This document shows, piece after piece, positions 1-21,239 of a stretch of DNA of 37,063 nt. Both the position numbers and the translations under genes were made by a program. The notes beneath the pieces were generated by a model. That model saw only the letters and a list, made by a program, of their open reading frames with translations, searched no databases and was not told the DNA's origin. The stretch is from Escherichia phage T7: the sequence record OL964749.1; one strand, written 5' to 3'. Position 1 is the first letter of the stretch. Each line of letters begins with the position of its first letter.

Positions 1-150
1 CTCACAGTGTACGGACCTAAAGTTCCCCCATAGGGGTACCTAAAGCCCAGCCAATCACCTAAAGTCAATGACCTTGAGGGTTCCCTAAGGGTTGGGGATG
101 ACCCTTGGGTTTGTCTTTGGGTGTTACCTTGAGTGTCTCTCTGTGTCCCT
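1..150. repeat. Left terminal direct repeat (TR) of a T7-type genome; identical copy at the right end
   Basis: Bases 1-150 recur exactly at 36914-37063; sequence matches the T7 terminal redundancy (CTCACAGTGTACGGACCTAAAG...). Confidence 0.95.
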
Positions 151-345
151 ACCTGTTACAGTCTCCTAAAGTATCCTCCTAAAGTATCCTCCTAAAGTCA
201 CCTCCTAACGTCCATCCTAAAGCCAACACCTAAAGACCCATCAAGTCAACGCCTATCTTAAAGTTTAAACATAAAGACCAGACCTAAAGACCAGACCTAA
301 AGACACTACATAAAGACCAGACCTAAAGACGCCTTGTTGTTAGCC
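151..345. repeat. Left-end array of short CCTAAAG-containing repeats (concatemer junction region)
   Basis: Repeated 12-13 bp units such as CCTAAAGTATCCT (165-177 and 178-190), CCTAAAGTCACCT, CCTAAAGACCAGA, as in the T7 left end. Confidence 0.8.
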
Positions 346-366
346 ATAAAGTGATAACCTTTAATC

Positions 367-431
367 ATTGTCTTTATTAATACAACTCATTGTCTTTATT
401 AATATAATCATTGTCTTTATTAATACAACTC
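367..431 (+). repeat. Tandem triplication of a 21-22 bp unit (ATTGTCTTTATTAATACAACTC) spanning the upstream half of promoter phiOL
   Basis: Copies at 367-388, 389-409 (variant AATATAATC) and 410-431; only the third is followed by CACTATAAGGAGAG. Confidence 0.85.
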
Positions 432-443
432 ACTATAAGGAGA
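421..443 (+). promoter_or_regulatory. T7 RNA polymerase promoter phiOL (left-end replication/packaging-associated promoter)
   Basis: TAATACAACTCACTATAAGGAGAG matches the T7 promoter consensus over -17 to +6 except two positions; predicted +1 near 438. Confidence 0.8.
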
Positions 444-494
444 GACAACTTAAAGAGACTTAAAAGATTAATTTAAAATTTATCAAAAAGAGTA

Positions 495-531
495 TTGACT
501 TAAAGTCTAACCTATAGGATACTTACAGCCA
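495..531 (+). promoter_or_regulatory. Strong early sigma70 promoter A1
   Basis: -35 TTGACT (495-500), 17-bp spacer, -10 GATACT (518-523), start near 531; matches the known T7 A1 sequence. Confidence 0.85.
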
Positions 532-642
532 TCGAGAGGGACACGGCGAATAGCCATCCCAATCGACACCGGGGTCAACCGGGCGCACAGTGCCTTCTAG
601 GTGACTTAAGCGCACCACGGCACATAAGGTGAAACAAAACGG

Positions 643-6053: not shown

Positions 6054-6076
6054 TTTTACGACTCACTAAAGGAGGT
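6054..6076 (+). promoter_or_regulatory. T7 promoter phi1.5 with non-consensus -16/-15 (TTTTACGACTCACTAAAGGAGGT)
   Basis: Matches the class II promoter from -14 to +6; positions -16 and -15 are TT instead of AA, consistent with a deletion junction at the promoter edge. Confidence 0.7.
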
Positions 6077-6083
6077 ACACACC

Positions 6084-6173
6084 ATGATGTACTTAATGCC
6101 ATTACTCATCGTCATTGTAGGATGCCTTGCGCTCCACTGTAGCGATGATGATATGCCAGATGGTCACGCTTAA
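6084..6173 (+). CDS. Gene 1.5 protein (29 aa)
   Basis: ORF MMYLMPLLIVIVGCLALHCSDDDMPDGHA preceded by AAGGAGGT; matches T7 gene 1.5. Confidence 0.7.
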   Translation: MMYLMPLLIVIVGCLALHCSDDDMPDGHA

Positions 6174-6193
6174 TACGACTCACTAAAGGAGAC
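6171..6193 (+). promoter_or_regulatory. T7 promoter phi1.6
   Basis: TAATACGACTCACTAAAGGAGAC; +1 near 6188. Confidence 0.9.
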
Positions 6194-6198
6194 ACTAT

Positions 6199-6465
6199 AT
6201 GTTTCGACTTCATTACAACAAAAGCGTTAAGAATTTCACGGTTCGCCGTGCTGACCGTTCAATCGTATGTGCGAGCGAGCGCCGAGCTAAGATACCTCTT
6301 ATTGGTAACACAGTTCCTTTGGCACCTAGCGTCCACATCATTATCACCCGTTGTGACTTTGAGAAAGCAATAGACAAGAAACGTCCGGTTCTTAGTGTGG
6401 CAGTGACCCGCTTCCCGTTCGTCCGTCTGTTACTCAAACGAATCAAGGAGGTGTTACACCTGTAA
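6199..6465 (+). CDS. Gene 1.6 protein (88 aa here; C-terminal residues may be altered by the adjacent deletion)
   Basis: [32 protein letters not shown]...; position and N-terminus match T7 gene 1.6. Confidence 0.8.
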
Positions 6466-6481
6466 CAAAGGAGCTAACGAT

Positions 6482-6941
6482 ATGACCGAACGTGAACAAG
6501 AGATGATCATTAAGTTGATAGACAATAATGAAGGTCGCCCAGATGATTTGAATGGCTGCGGTATTCTCTGCTCCAATGTCCCTTGCCACCTCTGCCCCGC
6601 AAATAACGATCAAAAGATAACCTTAGGTGAAATCCGAGCGATGGACCCACGTAAACCACATCTGAATAAACCTGAGGTAACTCCTACAGATGACCAGCCT
6701 TCCGCTGAGACAATCGAAGGTGTCACTAAGCCTTCCCACTACATGCTGTTTGACGACATTGAGGCTATCGAAGTGATTGCTCGTTCAATGACCGTTGAGC
6801 AGTTCAAGGGATACTGCTTCGGTAACATCTTAAAGTACAGACTACGTGCTGGTAAGAAGTCAGAGTTAGCGTACTTAGAGAAAGACCTAGCGAAAGCAGA
6901 CTTCTATAAAGAACTCTTTGAGAAACATAAGGATAAATGTT

Positions 6942-6949
<8 letters not shown>
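6482..6949 (+). CDS. Gene 1.7 protein (nucleotide kinase), N-terminally truncated: 155 aa against 196 aa in reference T7
   Basis: ORF MTEREQEMIIKLIDNNEGRPDDLNGCGILCSN...KDKCYA equals the C-terminal 155 aa of gp1.7; AAGGAG lies 8 nt upstream of this internal Met. Confidence 0.8.
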
Positions 6950-7350: not shown

Positions 7351-8049
7351 ATGGCTAAGAAGATTTTCACCTCTGCGCTGGGTACCGCTGAACCTTACGC
7401 TTACATCGCCAAGCCGGACTACGGCAACGAAGAGCGTGGCTTTGGGAACCCTCGTGGTGTCTATAAAGTTGACCTGACTATTCCCAACAAAGACCCGCGC
7501 TGCCAGCGTATGGTCGATGAAATCGTGAAGTGTCACGAAGAGGCTTATGCTGCTGCCGTTGAGGAATACGAAGCTAATCCACCTGCTGTAGCTCGTGGTA
7601 AGAAACCGCTGAAACCGTATGAGGGTGACATGCCGTTCTTCGATAACGGTGACGGTACGACTACCTTTAAGTTCAAATGCTACGCGTCTTTCCAAGACAA
7701 GAAGACCAAAGAGACCAAGCACATCAATCTTGTTGTGGTTGACTCAAAAGGTAAGAAGATGGAAGACGTTCCGATTATCGGTGGTGGCTCTAAGCTGAAA
7801 GTTAAATATTCTCTGGTTCCATACAAGTGGAACACTGCTGTAGGTGCGAGCGTTAAGCTGCAACTGGAATCCGTGATGCTGGTCGAACTGGCTACCTTTG
7901 GTGGCGGTGAAGACGATTGGGCTGACGAAGTTGAAGAGAACGGCTATGTTGCCTCTGGTTCTGCCAAAGCGAGCAAACCACGCGACGAAGAAAGCTGGGA
8001 CGAAGACGACGAAGAGTCCGAGGAAGCAGACGAAGACGGAGACTTCTAA
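7351..8049 (+). CDS. Single-stranded DNA-binding protein gp2.5
   Basis: 232-aa ORF MAKKIFTSALGTAEPYAYIAKPDYGNEERGFGNPRGVYKVDLTIPN... with acidic C-terminal tail ending ...EADEDGDF. Confidence 0.95.
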   Translation: MAKKIFTSALGTAEPYAYIAKPDYGNEERGFGNPRGVYKVDLTIPNKDPRCQRMVDEIVKCHEEAYAAAVEEYEANPPAVARGKKPLKPYEGDMPFFDNGDGTTTFKFKCYASFQDKKTKETKHINLVVVDSKGKKMEDVPIIGGGSKLKVKYSLVPYKWNTAVGASVKLQLESVMLVELATFGGGEDDWADEVEENGYVASGSAKASKPRDEESWDEDDEESEEADEDGDF

Positions 8050-8469
8050 GTGGAACTGCGGGAGAAAATCCTTGAGCGAATCAAGGTGACTTCCTCTGGG
8101 TGTTGGGAGTGGCAGGGCGCTACGAACAATAAAGGGTACGGGCAGGTGTGGTGCAGCAATACCGGAAAGGTTGTCTACTGTCATCGCGTAATGTCTAATG
8201 CTCCGAAAGGTTCTACCGTCCTGCACTCCTGTGATAATCCATTATGTTGTAACCCTGAACACCTATCCATAGGAACTCCAAAAGAGAACTCCACTGACAT
8301 GGTAAATAAGGGTCGCTCACACAAGGGGTATAAACTTTCAGACGAAGACGTAATGGCAATCATGGAGTCCAGCGAGTCCAATGTATCCTTAGCTCGCACC
8401 TATGGTGTCTCCCAACAGACTATTTGTGATATACGCAAATGGAGGCGACATGGCAGGTTACGGCGCTAA
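8050..8469 (+). CDS. Gene 2.8 protein (139 aa), HNH-type endonuclease-like
   Basis: ORF starting at GTG directly after the 2.5 stop; contains CHRVMSNAPKGSTVLHSCDNPLCCNPEHL, an HNH-like Cys/His motif. Confidence 0.7.
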   Translation: MELREKILERIKVTSSGCWEWQGATNNKGYGQVWCSNTGKVVYCHRVMSNAPKGSTVLHSCDNPLCCNPEHLSIGTPKENSTDMVNKGRSHKGYKLSDEDVMAIMESSESNVSLARTYGVSQQTICDIRKWRRHGRLRR

Positions 8470-8899
8470 AGGAATCCGAAAGGTTGGAGCGTTTCGCTCT
8501 GGCCTAGAGGACAAGGTTTCAAAGCAGTTGGAATCAAAAGGTATTAAATTCGAGTATGAAGAGTGGAAAGTGCCTTATGTAATTCCGGCGAGCAATCACA
8601 CTTACACTCCAGACTTCTTACTTCCAAACGGTATATTCGTTGAGACAAAGGGTCTGTGGGAAAGCGATGATAGAAAGAAGCACTTATTAATTAGGGAGCA
8701 GCACCCCGAGCTAGACATCCGTATTGTCTTCTCAAGCTCACGTACTAAGTTATACAAAGATTCTCCAACGTCTTATGGAGAGTTCTGCGAAAAGCATGGT
8801 ATTAAGTTCGCTGATAAACTGATACCTGCTGAGTGGATAAAGGAACCCAAGAAGGAGGTCCCCTTTGATAGATTAAAAAGGAAAGGAGGAAAGAAATAA
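8450..8899 (+). CDS. Endonuclease I (gene 3), Holliday-junction resolvase
   Basis: 149-aa ORF MAGYGAKGIRKVGAFRSGLEDKVSKQLESKGIKFEYEEWKVPYVIPASNHTYTPDFLLPNG...; the track start at 8402 is an upstream extension. Confidence 0.9.
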   Translation: MAGYGAKGIRKVGAFRSGLEDKVSKQLESKGIKFEYEEWKVPYVIPASNHTYTPDFLLPNGIFVETKGLWESDDRKKHLLIREQHPELDIRIVFSSSRTKLYKDSPTSYGEFCEKHGIKFADKLIPAEWIKEPKKEVPFDRLKRKGGKK

Positions 8900-9378: not shown

Positions 9379-11239
<1,861 letters not shown>

Positions 11240-11242
<3 letters not shown>

Positions 11243-11262
11243 TACGACTCACTAAAGGCCAC
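11240..11262 (+). promoter_or_regulatory. T7 promoter phi4.3 with altered initially transcribed sequence (GGCCAC instead of GGAGAC)
   Basis: TAATACGACTCACTAAAGG then CCACACAG; consensus through +2, consistent with a deletion junction at +3. Confidence 0.75.
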
Positions 11263-11380
11263 ACAGTCACGCGCTCTGGCGATTCGCTCCAACGAACTGG
11301 CTGACAGTGCATCCACTAAAGTTACCGAGGCTGCCCGTGTGGCAAACCAAGCTCAACAGCTTTCCAAATTCTTTGAGTAA
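11259..11380 (+). pseudogene. Remnant of gene 4.3 lacking RBS, start codon and about 30 N-terminal codons
   Basis: In-frame segment ATQSRALAIRSNELADSASTKVTEAARVANQAQQLSKFFE without an initiator; about 100 bp missing relative to reference. Confidence 0.65.
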
Positions 11381-11399
11381 TCAAACAGGAGAAACCATT

Positions 11400-11669
11400 A
11401 TGTCTAACGTAGCTGAAACTATCCGTCTATCCGATACAGCTGACCAGTGGAACCGTCGAGTCCACATCAACGTTCGCAACGGTAAGGCGACTATGGTTTA
11501 CCGCTGGAAGGACTCTAAGTCCTCTAAGAATCACACTCAGCGTATGACGTTGACAGATGAGCAAGCACTGCGTCTGGTCAATGCGCTTACCAAAGCTGCC
11601 GTGACAGCAATTCATGAAGCTGGTCGCGTCAATGAAGCTATGGCTATCCTCGACAAGATTGATAACTAA
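11400..11669 (+). CDS. Gene 4.5 protein (89 aa)
   Basis: ORF MSNVAETIRLSDTADQWNRRVHINVRNGKATMVYRWKDSK... preceded by CAGGAGAA; the track start at 11307 is an upstream extension. Confidence 0.85.
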   Translation: MSNVAETIRLSDTADQWNRRVHINVRNGKATMVYRWKDSKSSKNHTQRMTLTDEQALRLVNALTKAAVTAIHEAGRVNEAMAILDKIDN

Positions 11670-12068: not shown

Positions 12069-14183
12069 ATGATCGTTTCTGACATCGAAGCTAACGCCCT
12101 CTTAGAGAGCGTCACTAAGTTCCACTGCGGGGTTATCTACGACTACTCCACCGCTGAGTACGTAAGCTACCGTCCGAGTGACTTCGGTGCGTATCTGGAT
12201 GCGCTGGAAGCCGAGGTTGCACGAGGCGGTCTTATTGTGTTCCACAACGGTCACAAGTATGACGTTCCTGCATTGACCAAACTGGCAAAGTTGCAATTGA
12301 ACCGAGAGTTCCACCTTCCTCGTGAGAACTGTATTGACACCCTTGTGTTGTCACGTTTGATTCATTCCAACCTCAAGGACACCGATATGGGTCTTCTGCG
12401 TTCCGGCAAGTTGCCCGGAAAACGCTTTGGGTCTCACGCTTTGGAGGCGTGGGGTTATCGCTTAGGCGAGATGAAGGGTGAATACAAAGACGACTTTAAG
12501 CGTATGCTTGAAGAGCAGGGTGAAGAATACGTTGACGGAATGGAGTGGTGGAACTTCAACGAAGAGATGATGGACTATAACGTTCAGGACGTTGTGGTAA
12601 CTAAAGCTCTCCTTGAGAAGCTACTCTCTGACAAACATTACTTCCCTCCTGAGATTGACTTTACGGACGTAGGATACACTACGTTCTGGTCAGAATCCCT
12701 TGAGGCCGTTGACATTGAACATCGTGCTGCATGGCTGCTCGCTAAACAAGAGCGCAACGGGTTCCCGTTTGACACAAAAGCAATCGAAGAGTTGTACGTA
12801 GAGTTAGCTGCTCGCCGCTCTGAGTTGCTCCGTAAATTGACCGAAACGTTCGGCTCGTGGTATCAGCCTAAAGGTGGCACTGAGATGTTCTGCCATCCGC
12901 GAACAGGTAAGCCACTACCTAAATACCCTCGCATTAAGACACCTAAAGTTGGTGGTATCTTTAAGAAGCCTAAGAACAAGGCACAGCGAGAAGGCCGTGA
13001 GCCTTGCGAACTTGATACCCGCGAGTACGTTGCTGGTGCTCCTTACACCCCAGTTGAACATGTTGTGTTTAACCCTTCGTCTCGTGACCACATTCAGAAG
13101 AAACTCCAAGAGGCTGGGTGGGTCCCGACCAAGTACACCGATAAGGGTGCTCCTGTGGTGGACGATGAGGTACTCGAAGGAGTACGTGTAGATGACCCTG
13201 AGAAGCAAGCCGCTATCGACCTCATTAAAGAGTACTTGATGATTCAGAAGCGAATCGGACAGTCTGCTGAGGGAGACAAAGCATGGCTTCGTTATGTTGC
13301 TGAGGATGGTAAGATTCATGGTTCTGTTAACCCTAATGGAGCAGTTACGGGTCGTGCGACCCATGCGTTCCCAAACCTTGCGCAAATTCCGGGTGTACGT
13401 TCTCCTTATGGAGAGCAGTGTCGCGCTGCTTTTGGCGCTGAGCACCATTTGGATGGGATAACTGGTAAGCCTTGGGTTCAGGCTGGCATCGACGCATCCG
13501 GTCTTGAGCTACGCTGCTTGGCTCACTTCATGGCTCGCTTTGATAACGGCGAGTACGCTCACGAGATTCTTAACGGCGACATCCACACTAAGAACCAGAT
13601 AGCTGCTGAACTACCTACCCGAGATAACGCTAAGACGTTCATCTATGGGTTCCTCTATGGTGCTGGTGATGAGAAGATTGGACAGATTGTTGGTGCTGGT
13701 AAAGAGCGCGGTAAGGAACTCAAGAAGAAATTCCTTGAGAACACCCCCGCGATTGCAGCACTCCGCGAGTCTATCCAACAGACACTTGTCGAGTCCTCTC
13801 AATGGGTAGCTGGTGAGCAACAAGTCAAGTGGAAACGCCGCTGGATTAAAGGTCTGGATGGTCGTAAGGTACACGTTCGTAGTCCTCACGCTGCCTTGAA
13901 TACCCTACTGCAATCTGCTGGTGCTCTCATCTGCAAACTGTGGATTATCAAGACCGAAGAGATGCTCGTAGAGAAAGGCTTGAAGCATGGCTGGGATGGG
14001 GACTTTGCGTACATGGCATGGGTACATGATGAAATCCAAGTAGGCTGCCGTACCGAAGAGATTGCTCAGGTGGTCATTGAGACCGCACAAGAAGCGATGC
14101 GCTGGGTTGGAGACCACTGGAACTTCCGGTGTCTTCTGGATACCGAAGGTAAGATGGGTCCTAATTGGGCGATTTGCCACTGA
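12069..14183 (+). CDS. DNA polymerase gp5 (family A, thioredoxin-binding, with 3'-5' exonuclease)
   Basis: 704-aa [39 protein letters not shown]... with exonuclease and polymerase motifs; matches T7 gp5. Confidence 0.98.
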
Positions 14184-14198
14184 TACAGGAGGCTACTC

Positions 14199-14402
14199 AT
14201 GAACGAAAGACACTTAACAGGTGCTGCTTCTGAAATGCTAGTAGCCTACAAATTTACCAAAGCTGGGTACACTGTCTATTACCCTATGCTGACTCAGAGT
14301 AAAGAGGACTTGGTTGTATGTAAGGATGGTAAATTTAGTAAGGTTCAGGTTAAAACATTGTGGTTGACGAAGATGTGCTTATTTTCACATGGGACGAAGT
14401 AA
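14199..14402 (+). CDS. Gene 5.3 (HNH endonuclease-like), frameshift-truncated to 67 aa against 118 aa in reference
   Basis: N-terminus MNERHLTGAASEMLVAYKFTKAGYTVYYPMLTQSKEDLVVCKDGKFSKVQVKT matches gp5.3, then a short out-of-frame tail; about 100 bp missing. Confidence 0.7.
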   Translation: MNERHLTGAASEMLVAYKFTKAGYTVYYPMLTQSKEDLVVCKDGKFSKVQVKTLWLTKMCLFSHGTK

Positions 14403-16479: not shown

Positions 16480-16746
16480 ATGTGTTTCTCACCGAAAATT
16501 AAAACTCCGAAGATGGATACCAATCAGATTCGAGCCGTTGAGCCAGCGCCTCTGACCCAAGAAGTGTCAAGCGTGGAGTTCGGTGGGTCTTCTGATGAGA
16601 CGGATACCGAGGGCACCGAAGTGTCTGGACGCAAAGGCCTCAAGGTCGAACGTGATGATTCCGTAGCGAAGTCTAAAGCCAGCGGCAATGGCTCCGCTCG
16701 TATGAAATCTTCCATCCGTAAGTCCGCATTTGGAGGTAAGAAGTGA
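16480..16746 (+). CDS. Gene 6.7 protein (88 aa, virion protein)
   Basis: ORF MCFSPKIKTPKMDTNQIRAVEPAPLTQEVSSVEFGG...; the track start at 16459 is an upstream extension. Confidence 0.8.
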   Translation: MCFSPKIKTPKMDTNQIRAVEPAPLTQEVSSVEFGGSSDETDTEGTEVSGRKGLKVERDDSVAKSKASGNGSARMKSSIRKSAFGGKK

Positions 16747-17150: not shown

Positions 17151-17438
17151 ATGGGTAAGAAAGTTAAGAAGGCCGTGAAGAAAGTCACCAAGTCCGTTAA
17201 GGAAGGGGCTCGTCCGGTTAAACAGGTTGCTGGCGGTCTAGCTGGTCTGGCTGGTGGTACTGGTGAAGCACAGATGGTGGAAGTACCACAAGCTGCCGCA
17301 CAGATTGTTGACGTACCTGAGAAAGAGGTTTCCACTGAGGACGAAGCACAGACAGAAAGCGGACGCAAGAAAGCTCGTGCTGGCGGTAAGAAATCCTTGA
17401 GTGTAGCCCGTAGCTCCGGTGGCGGTATCAACATTTAA
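17151..17438 (+). CDS. Gene 7.3 protein (tail-associated), 95 aa here (reference about 99 aa)
   Basis: Lys-rich ORF MGKKVKKAVKKVTKSVKEGARPVKQVAGGLAGLAGG... preceded by AAGGAGGT. Confidence 0.8.
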   Translation: MGKKVKKAVKKVTKSVKEGARPVKQVAGGLAGLAGGTGEAQMVEVPQAAAQIVDVPEKEVSTEDEAQTESGRKKARAGGKKSLSVARSSGGGINI

Positions 17439-19184: not shown

Positions 19185-20108
19185 ATGGCTGAATCTAATG
19201 CAGACGTATATGCATCTTTTGGCGTGAACTCCGCTGTGATGTCTGGTGGTTCCGTTGAGGAACATGAGCAGAACATGCTGGCTCTTGATGTTGCTGCCCG
19301 TGATGGCGATGATGCAATCGAGTTAGCGTCAGACGAAGTGGAAACAGAACGTGACCTGTATGACAACTCTGACCCGTTCGGTCAAGAGGATGACGAAGGC
19401 CGCATTCAGGTTCGTATCGGTGATGGCTCTGAGCCGACCGATGTGGACACTGGAGAAGAAGGCGTTGAGGGCACCGAAGGTTCCGAAGAGTTTACCCCAC
19501 TGGGCGAGACTCCAGAAGAACTGGTAGCTGCCTCTGAGCAACTTGGTGAGCACGAAGAGGGCTTCCAAGAGATGATTAACATTGCTGCTGAGCGTGGCAT
19601 GAGTGTCGAGACCATTGAGGCTATCCAGCGTGAGTACGAGGAGAACGAAGAGTTGTCCGCCGAGTCCTACGCTAAGCTGGCTGAAATTGGCTACACGAAG
19701 GCTTTCATTGACTCGTATATCCGTGGTCAAGAAGCTCTGGTGGAGCAGTACGTAAACAGTGTCATTGAGTACGCTGGTGGTCGTGAACGTTTTGATGCAC
19801 TGTATAACCACCTTGAGACGCACAACCCTGAGGCTGCACAGTCGCTGGATAATGCGTTGACCAATCGTGACTTAGCGACCGTTAAGGCTATCATCAACTT
19901 GGCTGGTGAGTCTCGCGCTAAGGCGTTCGGTCGTAAGCCAACTCGTAGTGTGACTAATCGTGCTATTCCGGCTAAACCTCAGGCTACCAAGCGTGAAGGC
20001 TTTGCGGACCGTAGCGAGATGATTAAAGCTATGAGTGACCCTCGGTATCGCACAGATGCCAACTATCGTCGTCAAGTCGAACAGAAAGTAATCGATTCGA
20101 ACTTCTGA
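19185..20108 (+). CDS. Capsid assembly (scaffolding) protein gp9
   Basis: 307-aa acidic ORF MAESNADVYASFGVNSAVMSGGSVEEHEQNMLALD...; matches T7 gp9. Confidence 0.95.
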   Translation: MAESNADVYASFGVNSAVMSGGSVEEHEQNMLALDVAARDGDDAIELASDEVETERDLYDNSDPFGQEDDEGRIQVRIGDGSEPTDVDTGEEGVEGTEGSEEFTPLGETPEELVAASEQLGEHEEGFQEMINIAAERGMSVETIEAIQREYEENEELSAESYAKLAEIGYTKAFIDSYIRGQEALVEQYVNSVIEYAGGRERFDALYNHLETHNPEAAQSLDNALTNRDLATVKAIINLAGESRAKAFGRKPTRSVTNRAIPAKPQATKREGFADRSEMIKAMSDPRYRTDANYRRQVEQKVIDSNF

Positions 20109-20121
20109 TAGACTTCGAAAT

Positions 20122-20144
20122 TAATACGACTCACTATAGTGAGA
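20122..20144 (+). promoter_or_regulatory. T7 class III promoter phi10 carrying a G-to-T change at +2 (TATAGTGAGA instead of TATAGGGAGA)
   Basis: TAATACGACTCACTATAGTGAGACCACAACGGTTTCCCTCTAGAAATAATTTTGTTTAACTTTAAGAAGGAGATATACATATG; otherwise identical to the phi10 promoter and leader used in pET vectors. Confidence 0.9.
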
Positions 20145-20201
20145 CCACAACGGTTTCCCTCTAGAAATAATTTTGTTTAACTTTAAGAAGGAGATATACA
20201 T

Positions 20202-21239
20202 ATGGCTAGCATGACTGGTGGACAGCAAATGGGTACTAACCAAGGTAAAGGTGTAGTTGCTGCTGGAGATAAACTGGCGTTGTTCTTGAAGGTATTTGGC
20301 GGTGAAGTCCTGACTGCGTTCGCTCGTACCTCCGTGACCACTTCTCGCCACATGGTACGTTCCATCTCCAGCGGTAAATCCGCTCAGTTCCCTGTTCTGG
20401 GTCGCACTCAGGCAGCGTATCTGGCTCCGGGCGAGAACCTCGACGATAAACGTAAGGACATCAAACACACCGAGAAGGTAATCACCATTGACGGTCTCCT
20501 GACGGCTGACGTTCTGATTTATGATATTGAGGACGCGATGAACCACTACGACGTTCGCTCTGAGTATACCTCTCAGTTGGGTGAATCTCTGGCGATGGCT
20601 GCGGATGGTGCGGTTCTGGCTGAGATTGCCGGTCTGTGTAACGTGGAAAGCAAATATAATGAGAACATCGAGGGCTTAGGTACTGCTACCGTAATTGAGA
20701 CCACTCAGAACAAGGCCGCACTTACCGACCAAGTTGCGCTGGGTAAGGAGATTATTGCGGCTCTGACTAAGGCTCGTGCGGCTCTGACCAAGAACTATGT
20801 TCCGGCTGCTGACCGTGTGTTCTACTGTGACCCAGATAGCTACTCTGCGATTCTGGCAGCACTGATGCCGAACGCAGCAAACTACGCTGCTCTGATTGAC
20901 CCTGAGAAGGGTTCTATCCGCAACGTTATGGGCTTTGAGGTTGTAGAAGTTCCGCACCTCACCGCTGGTGGTGCTGGTACCGCTCGTGAGGGCACTACTG
21001 GTCAGAAGCACGTCTTCCCTGCCAATAAAGGTGAGGGTAATGTCAAGGTTGCTAAGGACAACGTTATCGGCCTGTTCATGCACCGCTCTGCGGTAGGTAC
21101 TGTTAAGCTGCGTGACTTGGCTCTGGAGCGCGCTCGCCGTGCTAACTTCCAAGCGGACCAGATTATCGCTAAGTACGCAATGGGCCACGGTGGTCTTCGC
21201 CCAGAAGCTGCTGGTGCAGTGGTTTTCAAAGTGGAGTAA
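20202..21239 (+). CDS. Major capsid protein gp10A
   Basis: 345-aa ORF MASMTGGQQMGTNQGKGVVAAGDKLALFLKVFGGEVLTAFARTSV...; identical to T7 gp10A including the T7-tag N-terminus. Confidence 0.98.
   Translation: MASMTGGQQMGTNQGKGVVAAGDKLALFLKVFGGEVLTAFARTSVTTSRHMVRSISSGKSAQFPVLGRTQAAYLAPGENLDDKRKDIKHTEKVITIDGLLTADVLIYDIEDAMNHYDVRSEYTSQLGESLAMAADGAVLAEIAGLCNVESKYNENIEGLGTATVIETTQNKAALTDQVALGKEIIAALTKARAALTKNYVPAADRVFYCDPDSYSAILAALMPNAANYAALIDPEKGSIRNVMGFEVVEVPHLTAGGAGTAREGTTGQKHVFPANKGEGNVKVAKDNVIGLFMHRSAVGTVKLRDLALERARRANFQADQIIAKYAMGHGGLRPEAAGAVVFKVE

What the first reader, a model, noticed from the sequence alone, without database searches (positions are those of the whole stretch)
6450..6485. 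About 100-bp deletion at the 1.6/1.7 boundary leaves an N-terminally truncated gp1.7
Gene 1.7 here begins at an internal Met (MTEREQEM...), giving 155 aa against 196 in reference; the first 41 codons, including a Cys-rich segment, are missing. A plausible Shine-Dalgarno (AAGGAG) sits 8 nt upstream of the new start, so the truncated kinase could still be made. gp1.7 is a nucleotide kinase that also confers dideoxynucleoside sensitivity.
Basis: partly seen in the sequence, partly recalled or inferred. Interest (0 to 1): 0.5.

Follow-up and report, generated by a model that had tools for sequence, protein, structure and literature searches.

The report
Engineered 100-bp deletion in T7 gene 1.7
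The window is a laboratory genome-reduced phage T7, and the gap at the gene 1.6/1.7 boundary is a designed CRISPR-guided 100-bp deletion that removes only a dispensable N-terminal extension, so the nucleotide kinase gene is probably still working.

Summary
Compared with reference T7 (V01146), exactly 100 bp (8163-8262) are missing at window 6455|6456. The deletion removes the gene 1.7 start codon and its first 32 codons, plus the last 4 nt of gene 1.6. The first start codon after the upstream stop is Met42 (window 6482). It is preceded by AAGGAG and an 8-nt spacer, and gives a 155-aa product identical to gp1.7 residues 42-196.

The deletion is engineered, not natural. The window carries five deletions of exactly 100 bp. 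Four have an unambiguous SpCas9 protospacer with an NGG PAM in their central 20 nt (chance about 1e-5); the fifth is compatible. This matches the "cassette-100" design of the CiPGr genome-reduction study (Yuan et al., NAR 2022). Deposited mutants T7_1t1 and T7_1t3 carry the same junction.

The truncation probably does not knock the gene out:
- Met42 is nearly invariant across homologues.
- 35 of 90 homologues, including K1F, C5 and KP32-like phages, start naturally at this Met.
- The internal Shine-Dalgarno is conserved at the DNA level.
- The DUF3310 domain and a conserved four-cysteine cluster are retained.
- An AlphaFold model is confident only from residue 42 onward.

From memory, unverified here, wild-type T7 already makes this short active isoform. 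Verdict: already known, low interest.

The parts
6171..6193 (+). T7 class II promoter phi1.6 (+1 at 6188). It is intact and drives the 1.6-1.7-1.8-2 transcript.
   Evidence: TAATACGACTCACTAAAGGAGAC read. It maps to the V01146 phi1.6 start at 7895 through the colinear block 6057-6455 = 7764-8162.
6199..6465 (+). Gene 1.6 (Pfam BC10 family), 88 aa. The C-terminus is changed by the deletion (F86 becomes L, plus H and L). It also carries a G52C substitution.
   Evidence: ORF. Comparison with the reference. SNPs. Pfam PF06726, 82 bits, over residues 1-67.
6455..6456 (.). Deletion junction (scar). V01146 8163-8262, exactly 100 bp, is missing between these two bases. No microhomology.
   Evidence: The deleted segment is centred on the protospacer ACCCGCCAGTACAAGCAACT with PAM GGG (V01146 8203-8225).
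6456..6481 (+). Remnant of gene 1.7 codons 33-41. It now holds the last three codons and stop of the extended gene 1.6, and serves as the 5' leader of the truncated gene 1.7.
   Evidence: The in-frame upstream codons contain no ATG/GTG/TTG.
6468..6473 (+). Shine-Dalgarno AAGGAG, 8 nt upstream of the Met42 ATG. It is unpaired in the predicted mRNA fold.
   Evidence: Sequence. Fold (MFE -7.2 kcal/mol, SD and ATG unpaired). AAAGGAG is conserved in 8 of 9 long or intermediate homologous loci, and GGAG in 9 of 9, despite synonymous changes alongside.
6482..6949 (+). Truncated gene 1.7: a 155-aa product (calculated 17.7 kDa) identical to gp1.7 residues 42-196.
   Evidence: OL964748 and OL964750 annotate the same 155-aa CDS.
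6557..6595 (+). Conserved four-cysteine cluster (C26, C30, C35, C38 of the short form; C67, C71, C76, C79 of the full-length protein). Retained.
   Evidence: These columns are invariant or at least 90% conserved in alignments A2 and A3. They lie in the part of the AlphaFold model with pLDDT 71-90.
6722..6910 (+). DUF3310 (PF11753) domain, the conserved core shared by all gp1.7-like 'nucleotide kinase' proteins. Retained intact.
   Evidence: Pfam hit of 82.1 bits against a cut-off of 24, residues 81-143 of the 155-aa product.

Best explanation
[quoted passage not shown] It is most likely isolate T7_100_t2 or a sibling.

The gap at 6455|6456 is a 'cassette-100' edit. Cas9 cut the protospacer ACCCGCCAGTACAAGCAACT(GGG) near the 5' end of gene 1.7. 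A plasmid template with two 50-bp arms then repaired the break and removed 40 + 20 + 40 = 100 bp.

The edit deletes the annotated start and the first 32 codons of gene 1.7, and rewrites the last codon of gene 1.6. It leaves in place:
- the phi1.6 promoter;
- an internal ribosome-binding site (AAGGAG, 8-nt spacer, ATG);
- everything from Met42 onward.

Ribosomes are therefore expected to initiate at Met42, either directly or by re-initiation after the gene 1.6 stop 16 nt upstream. The product would be a 155-aa, 17.7-kDa gp1.7 with the conserved Cys4 cluster and the DUF3310 core. That is the architecture many natural T7-like phages encode. The intended 'disruption' is therefore most likely not a null allele. 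The dTMP/dGMP kinase activity, and with it dideoxythymidine sensitivity, are probably retained.

Shown here: the deletion, its engineered signature, the retained ORF and ribosome-binding site, and the natural short homologues. Inferred: that the short protein is made and is active in this mutant.
For: Engineered origin:
- The deletion is exactly 100 bp with no microhomology.
- The window holds five deletions of exactly 100 bp, in genes 1.7, 4.3, 4.7 and 5.3 and at the right end. All four with unambiguous ends have a 20-nt protospacer followed by NGG at exactly their central 20 nt. The fifth, ambiguous by 10 bp, has compatible placements.
- NGG follows 6.1% of + strand positions in T7, so four out of four has p about 1.4e-5.
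- The window also has whole-CDS deletions of gene 1.4 (7608-7763) and gene 7.7 (19848-20216).
- The CiPGr paper describes 20-nt spacers, 2 x 50-bp arms, a cassette-100 that deletes 100 bp and a cassette-gene that deletes whole genes. It reports T7_100_t2 as reduced by 7.1%; the window is 37,063 bp, a 7.2% reduction (PMC9825161).
- The same junction is present in GenBank 'Mutant Escherichia phage T7 clone T7_1t1' and 'T7_1t3', OL964748 and OL964750.
- The junction is absent from 2.9 million IMG/VR contigs.

Short product likely made and functional:
- The ORF and Shine-Dalgarno are present, and the product is identical to residues 42-196.
- The DUF3310 domain is intact.
- Met42 is at least 90% conserved. 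Of 90 homologues, 35 start at the Met42 equivalent, 30 at about residue 18-20, and 25 are full length.
- In K1F and Klebsiella phage vB_Kpn15-P2 an in-frame stop lies 8 codons and 1 codon upstream of that Met respectively, with no alternative start. The short form is therefore genuine and not an annotation choice.
- In the C5-like locus L015, the end of gene 1.6 abuts the Met42 equivalent directly.
- The internal Shine-Dalgarno is conserved at the DNA level.
- The ribosome-binding site is unpaired in the predicted fold.
- The AlphaFold model has pLDDT below 50 for residues 1-41 and 71-90 for residues 42-100.
- Public T7 assemblies with a frameshift in the N-terminal extension also leave only this 155-aa ORF.
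- From memory, not verifiable here: Tran et al. 2010 (Mol Microbiol 77:492) reported purified gp1.7 as two forms of about 22 and 18 kDa, both active, with only the C-terminal part needed for ddT sensitivity. The calculated masses are 22,184 and 17,711 Da.
Against: - No expression or activity data exist for this mutant.
- The link between accessions OL964748/OL964750 and the CiPGr paper rests on clone names, the design signature and genome size. Supplementary Table S10 is not held, and OL964749 is not in the collection.
- The primary gp1.7 papers could not be read.
- My remembered mass for the short form (17,782 Da) differs by 71 Da from the calculated 17,711 Da. The literature claim should be re-checked.
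- The AlphaFold model is poor overall (mean pLDDT 55.8), and low confidence over residues 1-41 may partly reflect the thinner alignment there.
- Conservation of AAAGGAG cannot be fully separated from selection on the K-G-A residues it encodes.
Confidence: 0.8

Rival explanations
1. The deletion is engineered as described, but it is a true knock-out. Without the native start and its coupling to gene 1.6, the short protein is made at negligible levels, or is unstable or inactive without the N-terminal 41 residues.
For: The CiPGr design intent was disruption (PMC9825161). Gene 1.7 is non-essential (PMC9712115; PMC7697293), so viability says nothing about function. No expression data exist. 55 of 90 homologues keep some N-terminal extension, so it may have a role.
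Against: The Shine-Dalgarno is strong, accessible and correctly spaced. The gene 1.6 stop lies only 16 nt upstream, which favours re-initiation. The short architecture is natural in K1F, C5 and KP32-like phages. The conserved domains are intact. By recollection, both isoforms are active.
Confidence: 0.14
2. The deletion arose spontaneously, either during laboratory passage or in nature, as in the classical T7 early-region deletions that form by slippage or recombination between short direct repeats.
For: T7 does acquire such deletions. This same window has a 1480-bp deletion with a 13-bp repeat, a 277-bp deletion with a 9-bp repeat and a 12-bp in-frame deletion between repeats.
Against: There is no microhomology at this junction. 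The size is exactly 100 bp and is shared with four other deletions. Four of the five have an unambiguously centred protospacer with NGG, and the fifth is compatible (p about 1e-5). The junction is absent from IMG/VR. Among the records listed, only the two 'Mutant T7 clone' records span the junction in a single aligned piece.
Confidence: 0.04
3. The gap is an assembly or sequencing artefact, and the phage actually has an intact gene 1.7.
For: The genome ends of this record do look error-prone or rearranged.
Against: The identical junction appears in two independently deposited sibling genomes. The boundaries are clean and fit a published design rule.
Confidence: 0.02

Closest known systems
CiPGr 'cassette-100' deletions in phage T7 (Yuan, Shi, Jiang and Ma, Nucleic Acids Res 2022; PMC9825161); GenBank mutants T7_1t1 (OL964748) and T7_1t3 (OL964750)
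   Same: The junction is identical base for base. The 100-bp size, the centred SpCas9 protospacer with PAM and the absence of microhomology all match.
   Different: The window (37,063 bp) is not identical to either deposited sibling (37,088 and 37,455 bp). It differs from them by a few SNPs and deletions. The paper treats such edits as gene disruptions. The evidence here indicates that this one probably leaves a functional short gene.
Wild-type T7 gp1.7 nucleotide kinase (V01146 8166-8756; 196 aa; Pfam DUF3310)
   Same: Residues 42-196 are 100% identical. The gene sits in the same position between genes 1.6 and 1.8, under the same phi1.6 promoter, and has the same internal ribosome-binding site.
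   Different: It lacks the annotated start and residues 1-41 ([41 protein letters not shown]). Only the short isoform can be made.
Natural short gp1.7 homologues: Escherichia phage K1F gp1.7 (AM084414 7483-7950, 155 aa), phage C5 (155 aa), and Klebsiella KP32-like phages such as vB_Kpn15-P2 (148 aa)
   Same: The protein begins at the Met42-equivalent position, directly after gene 1.6. The Cys4 cluster and DUF3310 core are the same, and the length is about 148-158 aa.
   Different: These are natural genes with 55-80% identity. Their start codon abuts or overlaps the end of gene 1.6. In the window, a 26-nt remnant of the T7 N-terminal extension lies between the junction and the ATG.
Studier-type spontaneous T7 deletions between short direct repeats
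   Same: They are viable deletions in the non-essential early or class II region of T7.
   Different: They have direct repeats at their end points, and this junction has none. Their sizes are arbitrary, whereas this one is exactly 100 bp.

Membership tests
CiPGr cassette-100 engineered deletion | The deleted segment is exactly 100 bp. | tested here: met
   V01146 8163-8262 is missing.
CiPGr cassette-100 engineered deletion | An SpCas9 target (20 nt plus NGG) lies inside the deleted segment, so the edited phage escapes cutting. | tested here: met
   The protospacer at 8203-8222 with PAM GGG sits at exactly the central 20 nt. The same geometry holds in the other three unambiguous 100-bp deletions and is compatible in the fifth. 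Chance is about 1.4e-5. The 40+20+40 rule is my inference; the paper states only the 100-bp size and the 50-bp arms.
CiPGr cassette-100 engineered deletion | The junction is precise and template-directed, with no repeat-mediated end points. | tested here: met
   Microhomology is 0 bp at 6455|6456.
CiPGr cassette-100 engineered deletion | The genome is documented as a product of that study. | tested here: inconclusive
   The nearest records are 'Mutant Escherichia phage T7 clone T7_1t1' and 'T7_1t3'. The paper names T7_100_t2 with a 7.1% reduction. The accession table (Supplementary Table S10) is not held, and OL964749 is not in the collection.
T7 gp1.7 / DUF3310 nucleotide kinase | DUF3310 (PF11753) domain scoring above Pfam's gathering threshold. 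| tested here: met
   82.1 bits against a cut-off of 24, residues 81-143.
T7 gp1.7 / DUF3310 nucleotide kinase | Sequence identity and synteny with T7 gene 1.7, between gene 1.6 (BC10 family) and genes 1.8 and 2. | tested here: met
   100% identity to residues 42-196. Gene order confirmed.
T7 gp1.7 / DUF3310 nucleotide kinase | Metal-independent phosphorylation of dTMP and dGMP, and conferral of ddT sensitivity. | not testable with these tools
   These activities are described for the full-length protein in the cited literature (PMC7693777; PMC11897194). They have not been measured for this allele.
T7 gp1.7 / DUF3310 nucleotide kinase | Full-length 196-aa product made from the annotated start at V01146 8166. 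| tested here: not met
   The start codon and codons 1-32 are deleted, and no upstream in-frame start exists. The allele therefore belongs to the family as its short form only.
Spontaneous repeat-mediated T7 deletion | A short direct repeat flanks the deleted segment. | tested here: not met
   There is no shared base at the two end points. Compare the 13-bp and 9-bp repeats at two other deletions in the same window.

The most novel reading that the evidence does not exclude
The 41-residue N-terminal extension of T7 gp1.7 may be a modular, lineage-specific add-on. It comes in three natural states: absent, a 22-residue CxxC...HxC module, or the full 41 residues. It could have its own regulatory or immune-related role, for example modulating kinase assembly or recognition by defence sensors such as EfAvs5. 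Its loss might then have been favoured, rather than merely tolerated, in the CiPGr screen for faster-killing T7, since the window and both deposited T7_1t siblings share this edit. A side consequence would be that some cassette-100 'disruptions' used to call genes removable are not nulls.
Probability: 0.1. Interest if true: 0.4.

Novelty: already known. Interest (0 to 1): 0.12.

Why it matters
The finding matters mainly as a caution. The feature is a man-made scar in a published synthetic-biology strain, not a natural variant, so it carries no evolutionary signal.

It has one practical consequence. This 100-bp 'disruption' of gene 1.7 probably leaves the natural short kinase isoform intact. 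Phenotypes of this strain, and any 'removable gene' call that rests on this cassette, should not be read as a gene 1.7 null. The same applies to any use of the strain to test gp1.7-dependent traits such as dideoxythymidine sensitivity or activation of the Avs5 defence protein.

The comparative result is a modest by-product: three natural N-terminal architectures, with Met42 as a conserved start.

Tried and rejected
- I tried to read the primary gp1.7 papers: JBC 2012 (PMC3436134), PNAS 2008 (PMC2453740), J Bacteriol 2014 (PMC4135679), and Mol Microbiol 2010 by PubMed id, by DOI and by a guessed PMC id. None is held. Full-text searches for the two-isoform statement found nothing. That claim therefore stays a recollection.
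- Searching papers for the accession OL964748 gave no hit. The CiPGr supplements are not held. OL964749 is not in the phage collection.
- A 70-nt junction query against the phage collection was uninformative, because BLAST joins the two flanks in wild-type records. I replaced it with an exact-pattern scan of IMG/VR, which gave 0 hits.
- I checked microhomology as a signature of spontaneous deletion. It is absent here.
- A PDB sequence search for gp1.7 gave no homologue.
- The AlphaFold model was too weak overall (pLDDT 55.8) to justify a fold search, so I used only its per-residue confidence profile.
- The RNA fold of the new leader showed no structure that sequesters the ribosome-binding site.

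Full report
**What the window is.** The region reads as phage T7: class II promoters TAATACGACTCACTAAAGGAG, the ligase gene, and genes 1.5, 1.6, 1.7, 1.8, 2 and 2.5. Megablast of 6150-7000 hits T7 records at 99.8-100% identity. Among the listed records, only two span the query in a single piece: OL964748 ('Mutant Escherichia phage T7 clone T7_1t1', 37,088 bp) and OL964750 ('T7_1t3', 37,455 bp). Every wild-type record needs two pieces. The first 25 kb of the window needs 11 pieces against V01146, so the genome carries many deletions.

**Checking the observation.** Aligning window 6380-6520 with V01146 gives one gap of exactly 100 bp, V01146 8163-8262. The junction is GGTGTT|ACACCTG at window 6455|6456, and it is identical in OL964748 and OL964750.
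- In the reference, gene 1.6 is 7906-8166 and gene 1.7 is 8166-8756 (196 aa); the stop and the start overlap as TGATG.
- The deletion removes the last 4 nt of gene 1.6. gp1.6 changes from ...KEVF* to ...KEVLHL*, 86 to 88 aa, with a new stop at 6463-6465.
- It also removes the gene 1.7 ATG and 32 codons plus 1 nt.
- The next start in frame is Met42 at window 6482. The ORF list confirms this is the first ATG/GTG/TTG after the upstream stop.
- The 155-aa product is identical to residues 42-196 of gp1.7.
- AAGGAG lies at 6468-6473, 8 nt from the ATG.

Two corrections apply. Codons 33-41 are still present as leader, and the conserved Cys4 cluster (C67, C71, C76, C79) is retained. Only an accessory C-x2-C...H-x-C segment is lost.

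**Origin of the deletion.** A whole-genome comparison, refined, lists the following deletions relative to V01146.

| Type | V01146 position | Gene or region | Microhomology |
|---|---|---|---|
| Exactly 100 bp | 8163-8262 | gene 1.7 | 0 bp |
| Exactly 100 bp | within 13340-13449 | gene 4.3 | 10 bp, ends ambiguous |
| Exactly 100 bp | 14172-14271 | gene 4.7 | 0 bp |
| Exactly 100 bp | 16642-16741 | gene 5.3 | 0 bp |
| Exactly 100 bp | 39565-39664 | right end, no annotated gene | 0 bp |
| Whole CDS, 156 bp | 7608-7763 | gene 1.4 | 0 bp |
| 369 bp from the start codon | 19848-20216 | gene 7.7 | 0 bp |
| 1480 bp | about 1244-2736 | genes 0.3 to 0.7 | 13-bp repeat |
| 277 bp | about 11177-11462 | gene 3.8 | 9-bp repeat |

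In all four 100-bp deletions with unambiguous ends, the central 20 nt (positions 41-60) are followed directly by NGG on the + strand. For gene 1.7 the protospacer is ACCCGCCAGTACAAGCAACT with PAM GGG. The ambiguous deletion has compatible placements. NGG follows only 6.1% of T7 positions, so four out of four has a chance of about 1.4e-5.

This is the geometry of a designed Cas9 edit. It matches the CiPGr method of Yuan et al. (NAR 2022, PMC9825161), whose cassettes combine a 20-nt spacer with a template of 2 x 50-bp arms. 'Cassette-100' deletes a 100-bp fragment and 'cassette-gene' deletes the whole gene. Populations from both libraries were pooled and passaged to select fast killers. One of these, T7_100_t2, had a genome reduced by 7.1%. 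The window, at 37,063 bp, is 7.2% shorter than T7. The GenBank clone names T7_1t1 and T7_1t3 fit T7_100_t1 and T7_100_t3.

I could not see the accession table, and OL964749 is not in the local collection, so the exact identity is inferred. The junction sequence is absent from IMG/VR. A spontaneous origin is effectively excluded by the absence of microhomology, the exact round size and the centred PAM. An artefact is excluded by the identical junction in the sibling genomes.

**What remains, and whether it works.**

*Transcription.* The phi1.6 promoter (6171-6193) is intact.

*Translation.* The Shine-Dalgarno and ATG are well spaced and unpaired in the predicted fold of the new leader (MFE only -7.2 kcal/mol). 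The gene 1.6 stop lies 16 nt upstream, which also allows re-initiation.

*Protein domains.* The DUF3310 domain scores 82 bits over residues 81-143 of the short form.

*Natural short homologues.* A search of 5.8 billion proteins found 1040 homologues. In alignments of 22 and 90 of them, Met42 is at least 90% conserved. The N-termini fall into three classes:
- 25 of 90 are long, starting at residue 1.
- 30 of 90 are intermediate, starting M(S)GCIAC at about residue 18-20.
- 35 of 90 are short, starting at the Met42 equivalent.

The short class is genuine. In K1F (AM084414) an in-frame TGA lies 8 codons upstream of the start. In Klebsiella phage vB_Kpn15-P2 a TAA lies immediately upstream. Neither has an alternative start. 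In a C5-like IMG/VR genome, the T7-like end of gene 1.6 (...AATCAAGGAGGTGTTCTG) abuts the Met42-equivalent ATG directly. tblastn across 50,697 phage genomes gives the same picture. Of 1252 records with a match, only 246 cover at least 80% of the 196-aa query. In the listed spread of hits, many Klebsiella phages align from residue 41 or 42, and more distant relatives keep only about the last 75-100 residues.

*Conservation of the internal Shine-Dalgarno.* Among nine long or intermediate loci, the internal AAAGGAG is invariant in eight and GGAG in all nine, while neighbouring codons vary synonymously.

*Structure prediction.* An AlphaFold2 model of a 197-aa homologue (P0001, 94% identical to T7 gp1.7) is weak overall, with mean pLDDT 55.8. 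Its confidence jumps at Met42: below 50 for residues 1-41 and 71-90 for residues 42-100.

*Other T7 stocks.* Public T7 assemblies ERR13249017 and ERR13249052 carry a 1-nt deletion in an A5 run within codons 9-11. This frameshift leaves the same 155-aa ORF.

Together these results indicate that residues 1-41 are an accessory, lineage-specific extension, and that the 155-aa protein is a natural, self-sufficient unit.

**Literature.** Papers readable here describe gp1.7 as follows:
- a non-essential nucleotide kinase (PMC9712115; PMC7697293);
- a phosphorylator of dTMP and dGMP that does not need divalent cations (PMC7693777);
- an activator of the EfAvs5 defence protein (PMC11897194).

From memory, Tran et al. 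2010 (Mol Microbiol 77:492) reported that purified gp1.7 exists as two forms of about 22 and 18 kDa, that both are active, and that only the C-terminal part is needed for ddT sensitivity. I could not read that paper or its companions. The calculated masses are 22,184 Da and 17,711 Da. The first agrees with my remembered 22,181. The second differs by 71 Da from my remembered 17,782, so the exact figure needs checking. The comparative evidence above does not depend on that recollection.

**Conclusion.** The feature is a designed 100-bp Cas9/homologous-recombination deletion in a published genome-reduced T7. It removes the long-isoform start of gene 1.7 and alters the C-terminal tail of gp1.6. 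It most likely leaves the short 155-aa kinase expressed and active, so it is probably not a null. I estimate about 0.93 for the engineered origin, about 0.75-0.8 for a functional short form, and 0.8 for the combined statement. The main rival is that the edit is a true knock-out (0.14). A ddT plating test or detection of the 17.7-kDa protein would decide between them.

The finding is already known in kind and in instance, and its interest is low. The useful residue is the warning that this cassette-100 'disruption' should not be treated as a gene 1.7 knock-out.

Noticed in passing
L021 1353-1512 and L023 1353-1512 (Logan assemblies ERR13249017 and ERR13249052); corresponds to V01146 about 8193-8197: Other public T7 assemblies carry a 1-nt deletion in the A5 run of gene 1.7 codons 9-11. 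This frameshifts the long isoform, so gene callers report the same 155-aa Met42 product. 18 of the 23 contigs read show a wild-type-length gp1.6 (86 aa) next to a 155-aa gp1.7. I did not resolve whether this is a real variant or a homopolymer error.
   Followed up: partly
window 6056|6057 (V01146 7608-7763 deleted); promoter phi1.5 at window 6054-6076: The gene 1.4 CDS is deleted precisely, in cassette-gene style. The cut also removes the first three bases of the phi1.5 promoter. In the new context, positions -16 and -15 change (TAATACGACTCAC becomes TTTTACGACTCAC), which may weaken phi1.5.
   Followed up: partly
window 6352 (gp1.6 G52C), 6327 (silent), 7087 (gene 1.8 stop TGA to TAA), 7140 (gp2 W17L): There are four point differences from V01146 near the finding, three of them G to T. 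None is present in the sibling-study clone MZ375233 (T7_10L). They are only partly shared with OL964748 and OL964750. The W17L change lies in gp2, the inhibitor of host RNA polymerase.
   Followed up: partly
window 1-640: The left end differs from V01146 in several ways: an 8-bp deletion in the terminal repeat (ref 71-78); a T-to-C change near ref 162; a short duplication with rearrangement near ref 183-235, similar to the 13-base duplication at base 183 reported for evolved T7 in PMC3737178; a 43-bp partial duplication at the phiOL promoter (window about 361-403); and a deletion of about 95-104 bp (ref about 541-644, bounded by a GTCAACCGG repeat) that removes E. coli promoter A2.
   Followed up: partly
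window 1172|1173 (V01146 about 1244/1257 to 2723/2736): A 1480-bp deletion with a 13-bp direct repeat at its ends removes the end of gene 0.3, genes 0.4-0.6 and about the first two-thirds of gene 0.7. It looks spontaneous and repeat-mediated rather than designed. Records of 38,457 bp (MZ375235, MZ375236) have a size consistent with carrying this deletion alone.
   Followed up: no
window 36799|36800 (V01146 39565-39664): A fifth exact 100-bp deletion with a centred protospacer and AGG PAM lies to the right of gene 19.5, where V01146 annotates no gene. The designers' own gene prediction presumably called an ORF there.
   Followed up: no
window about 17194-17202 (V01146 about 19579-19590, gene 7.3): A 12-nt in-frame deletion between GTTAAG(A/G)AAG direct repeats removes four codons of gp7.3.
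   Followed up: no
window 9369|9370 (V01146 about 11177-11462): A 277-bp deletion with a 9-bp repeat removes the phi3.8 promoter region and the 5' two-thirds of gene 3.8. It is neither 100 bp nor a whole CDS, so it is probably spontaneous or an imprecise repair.
   Followed up: no
protein P0116 (158 aa), alignment A2: One gp1.7 homologue carries the GCIACLE(K/N)DDRYPHTC module twice, separated by the MGLLDGAAWEKENPP segment, and lacks the Cys4 region. This suggests that the N-terminal pieces behave as shuffled or duplicated mini-modules.
   Followed up: no
window 6452-6467: The junction creates a 6-bp inverted repeat, TGTTAC-ACCT-GTAACA, that spans the new gene 1.6 stop codon. It is predicted to form only a weak hairpin and does not include the Shine-Dalgarno.
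   Followed up: yes
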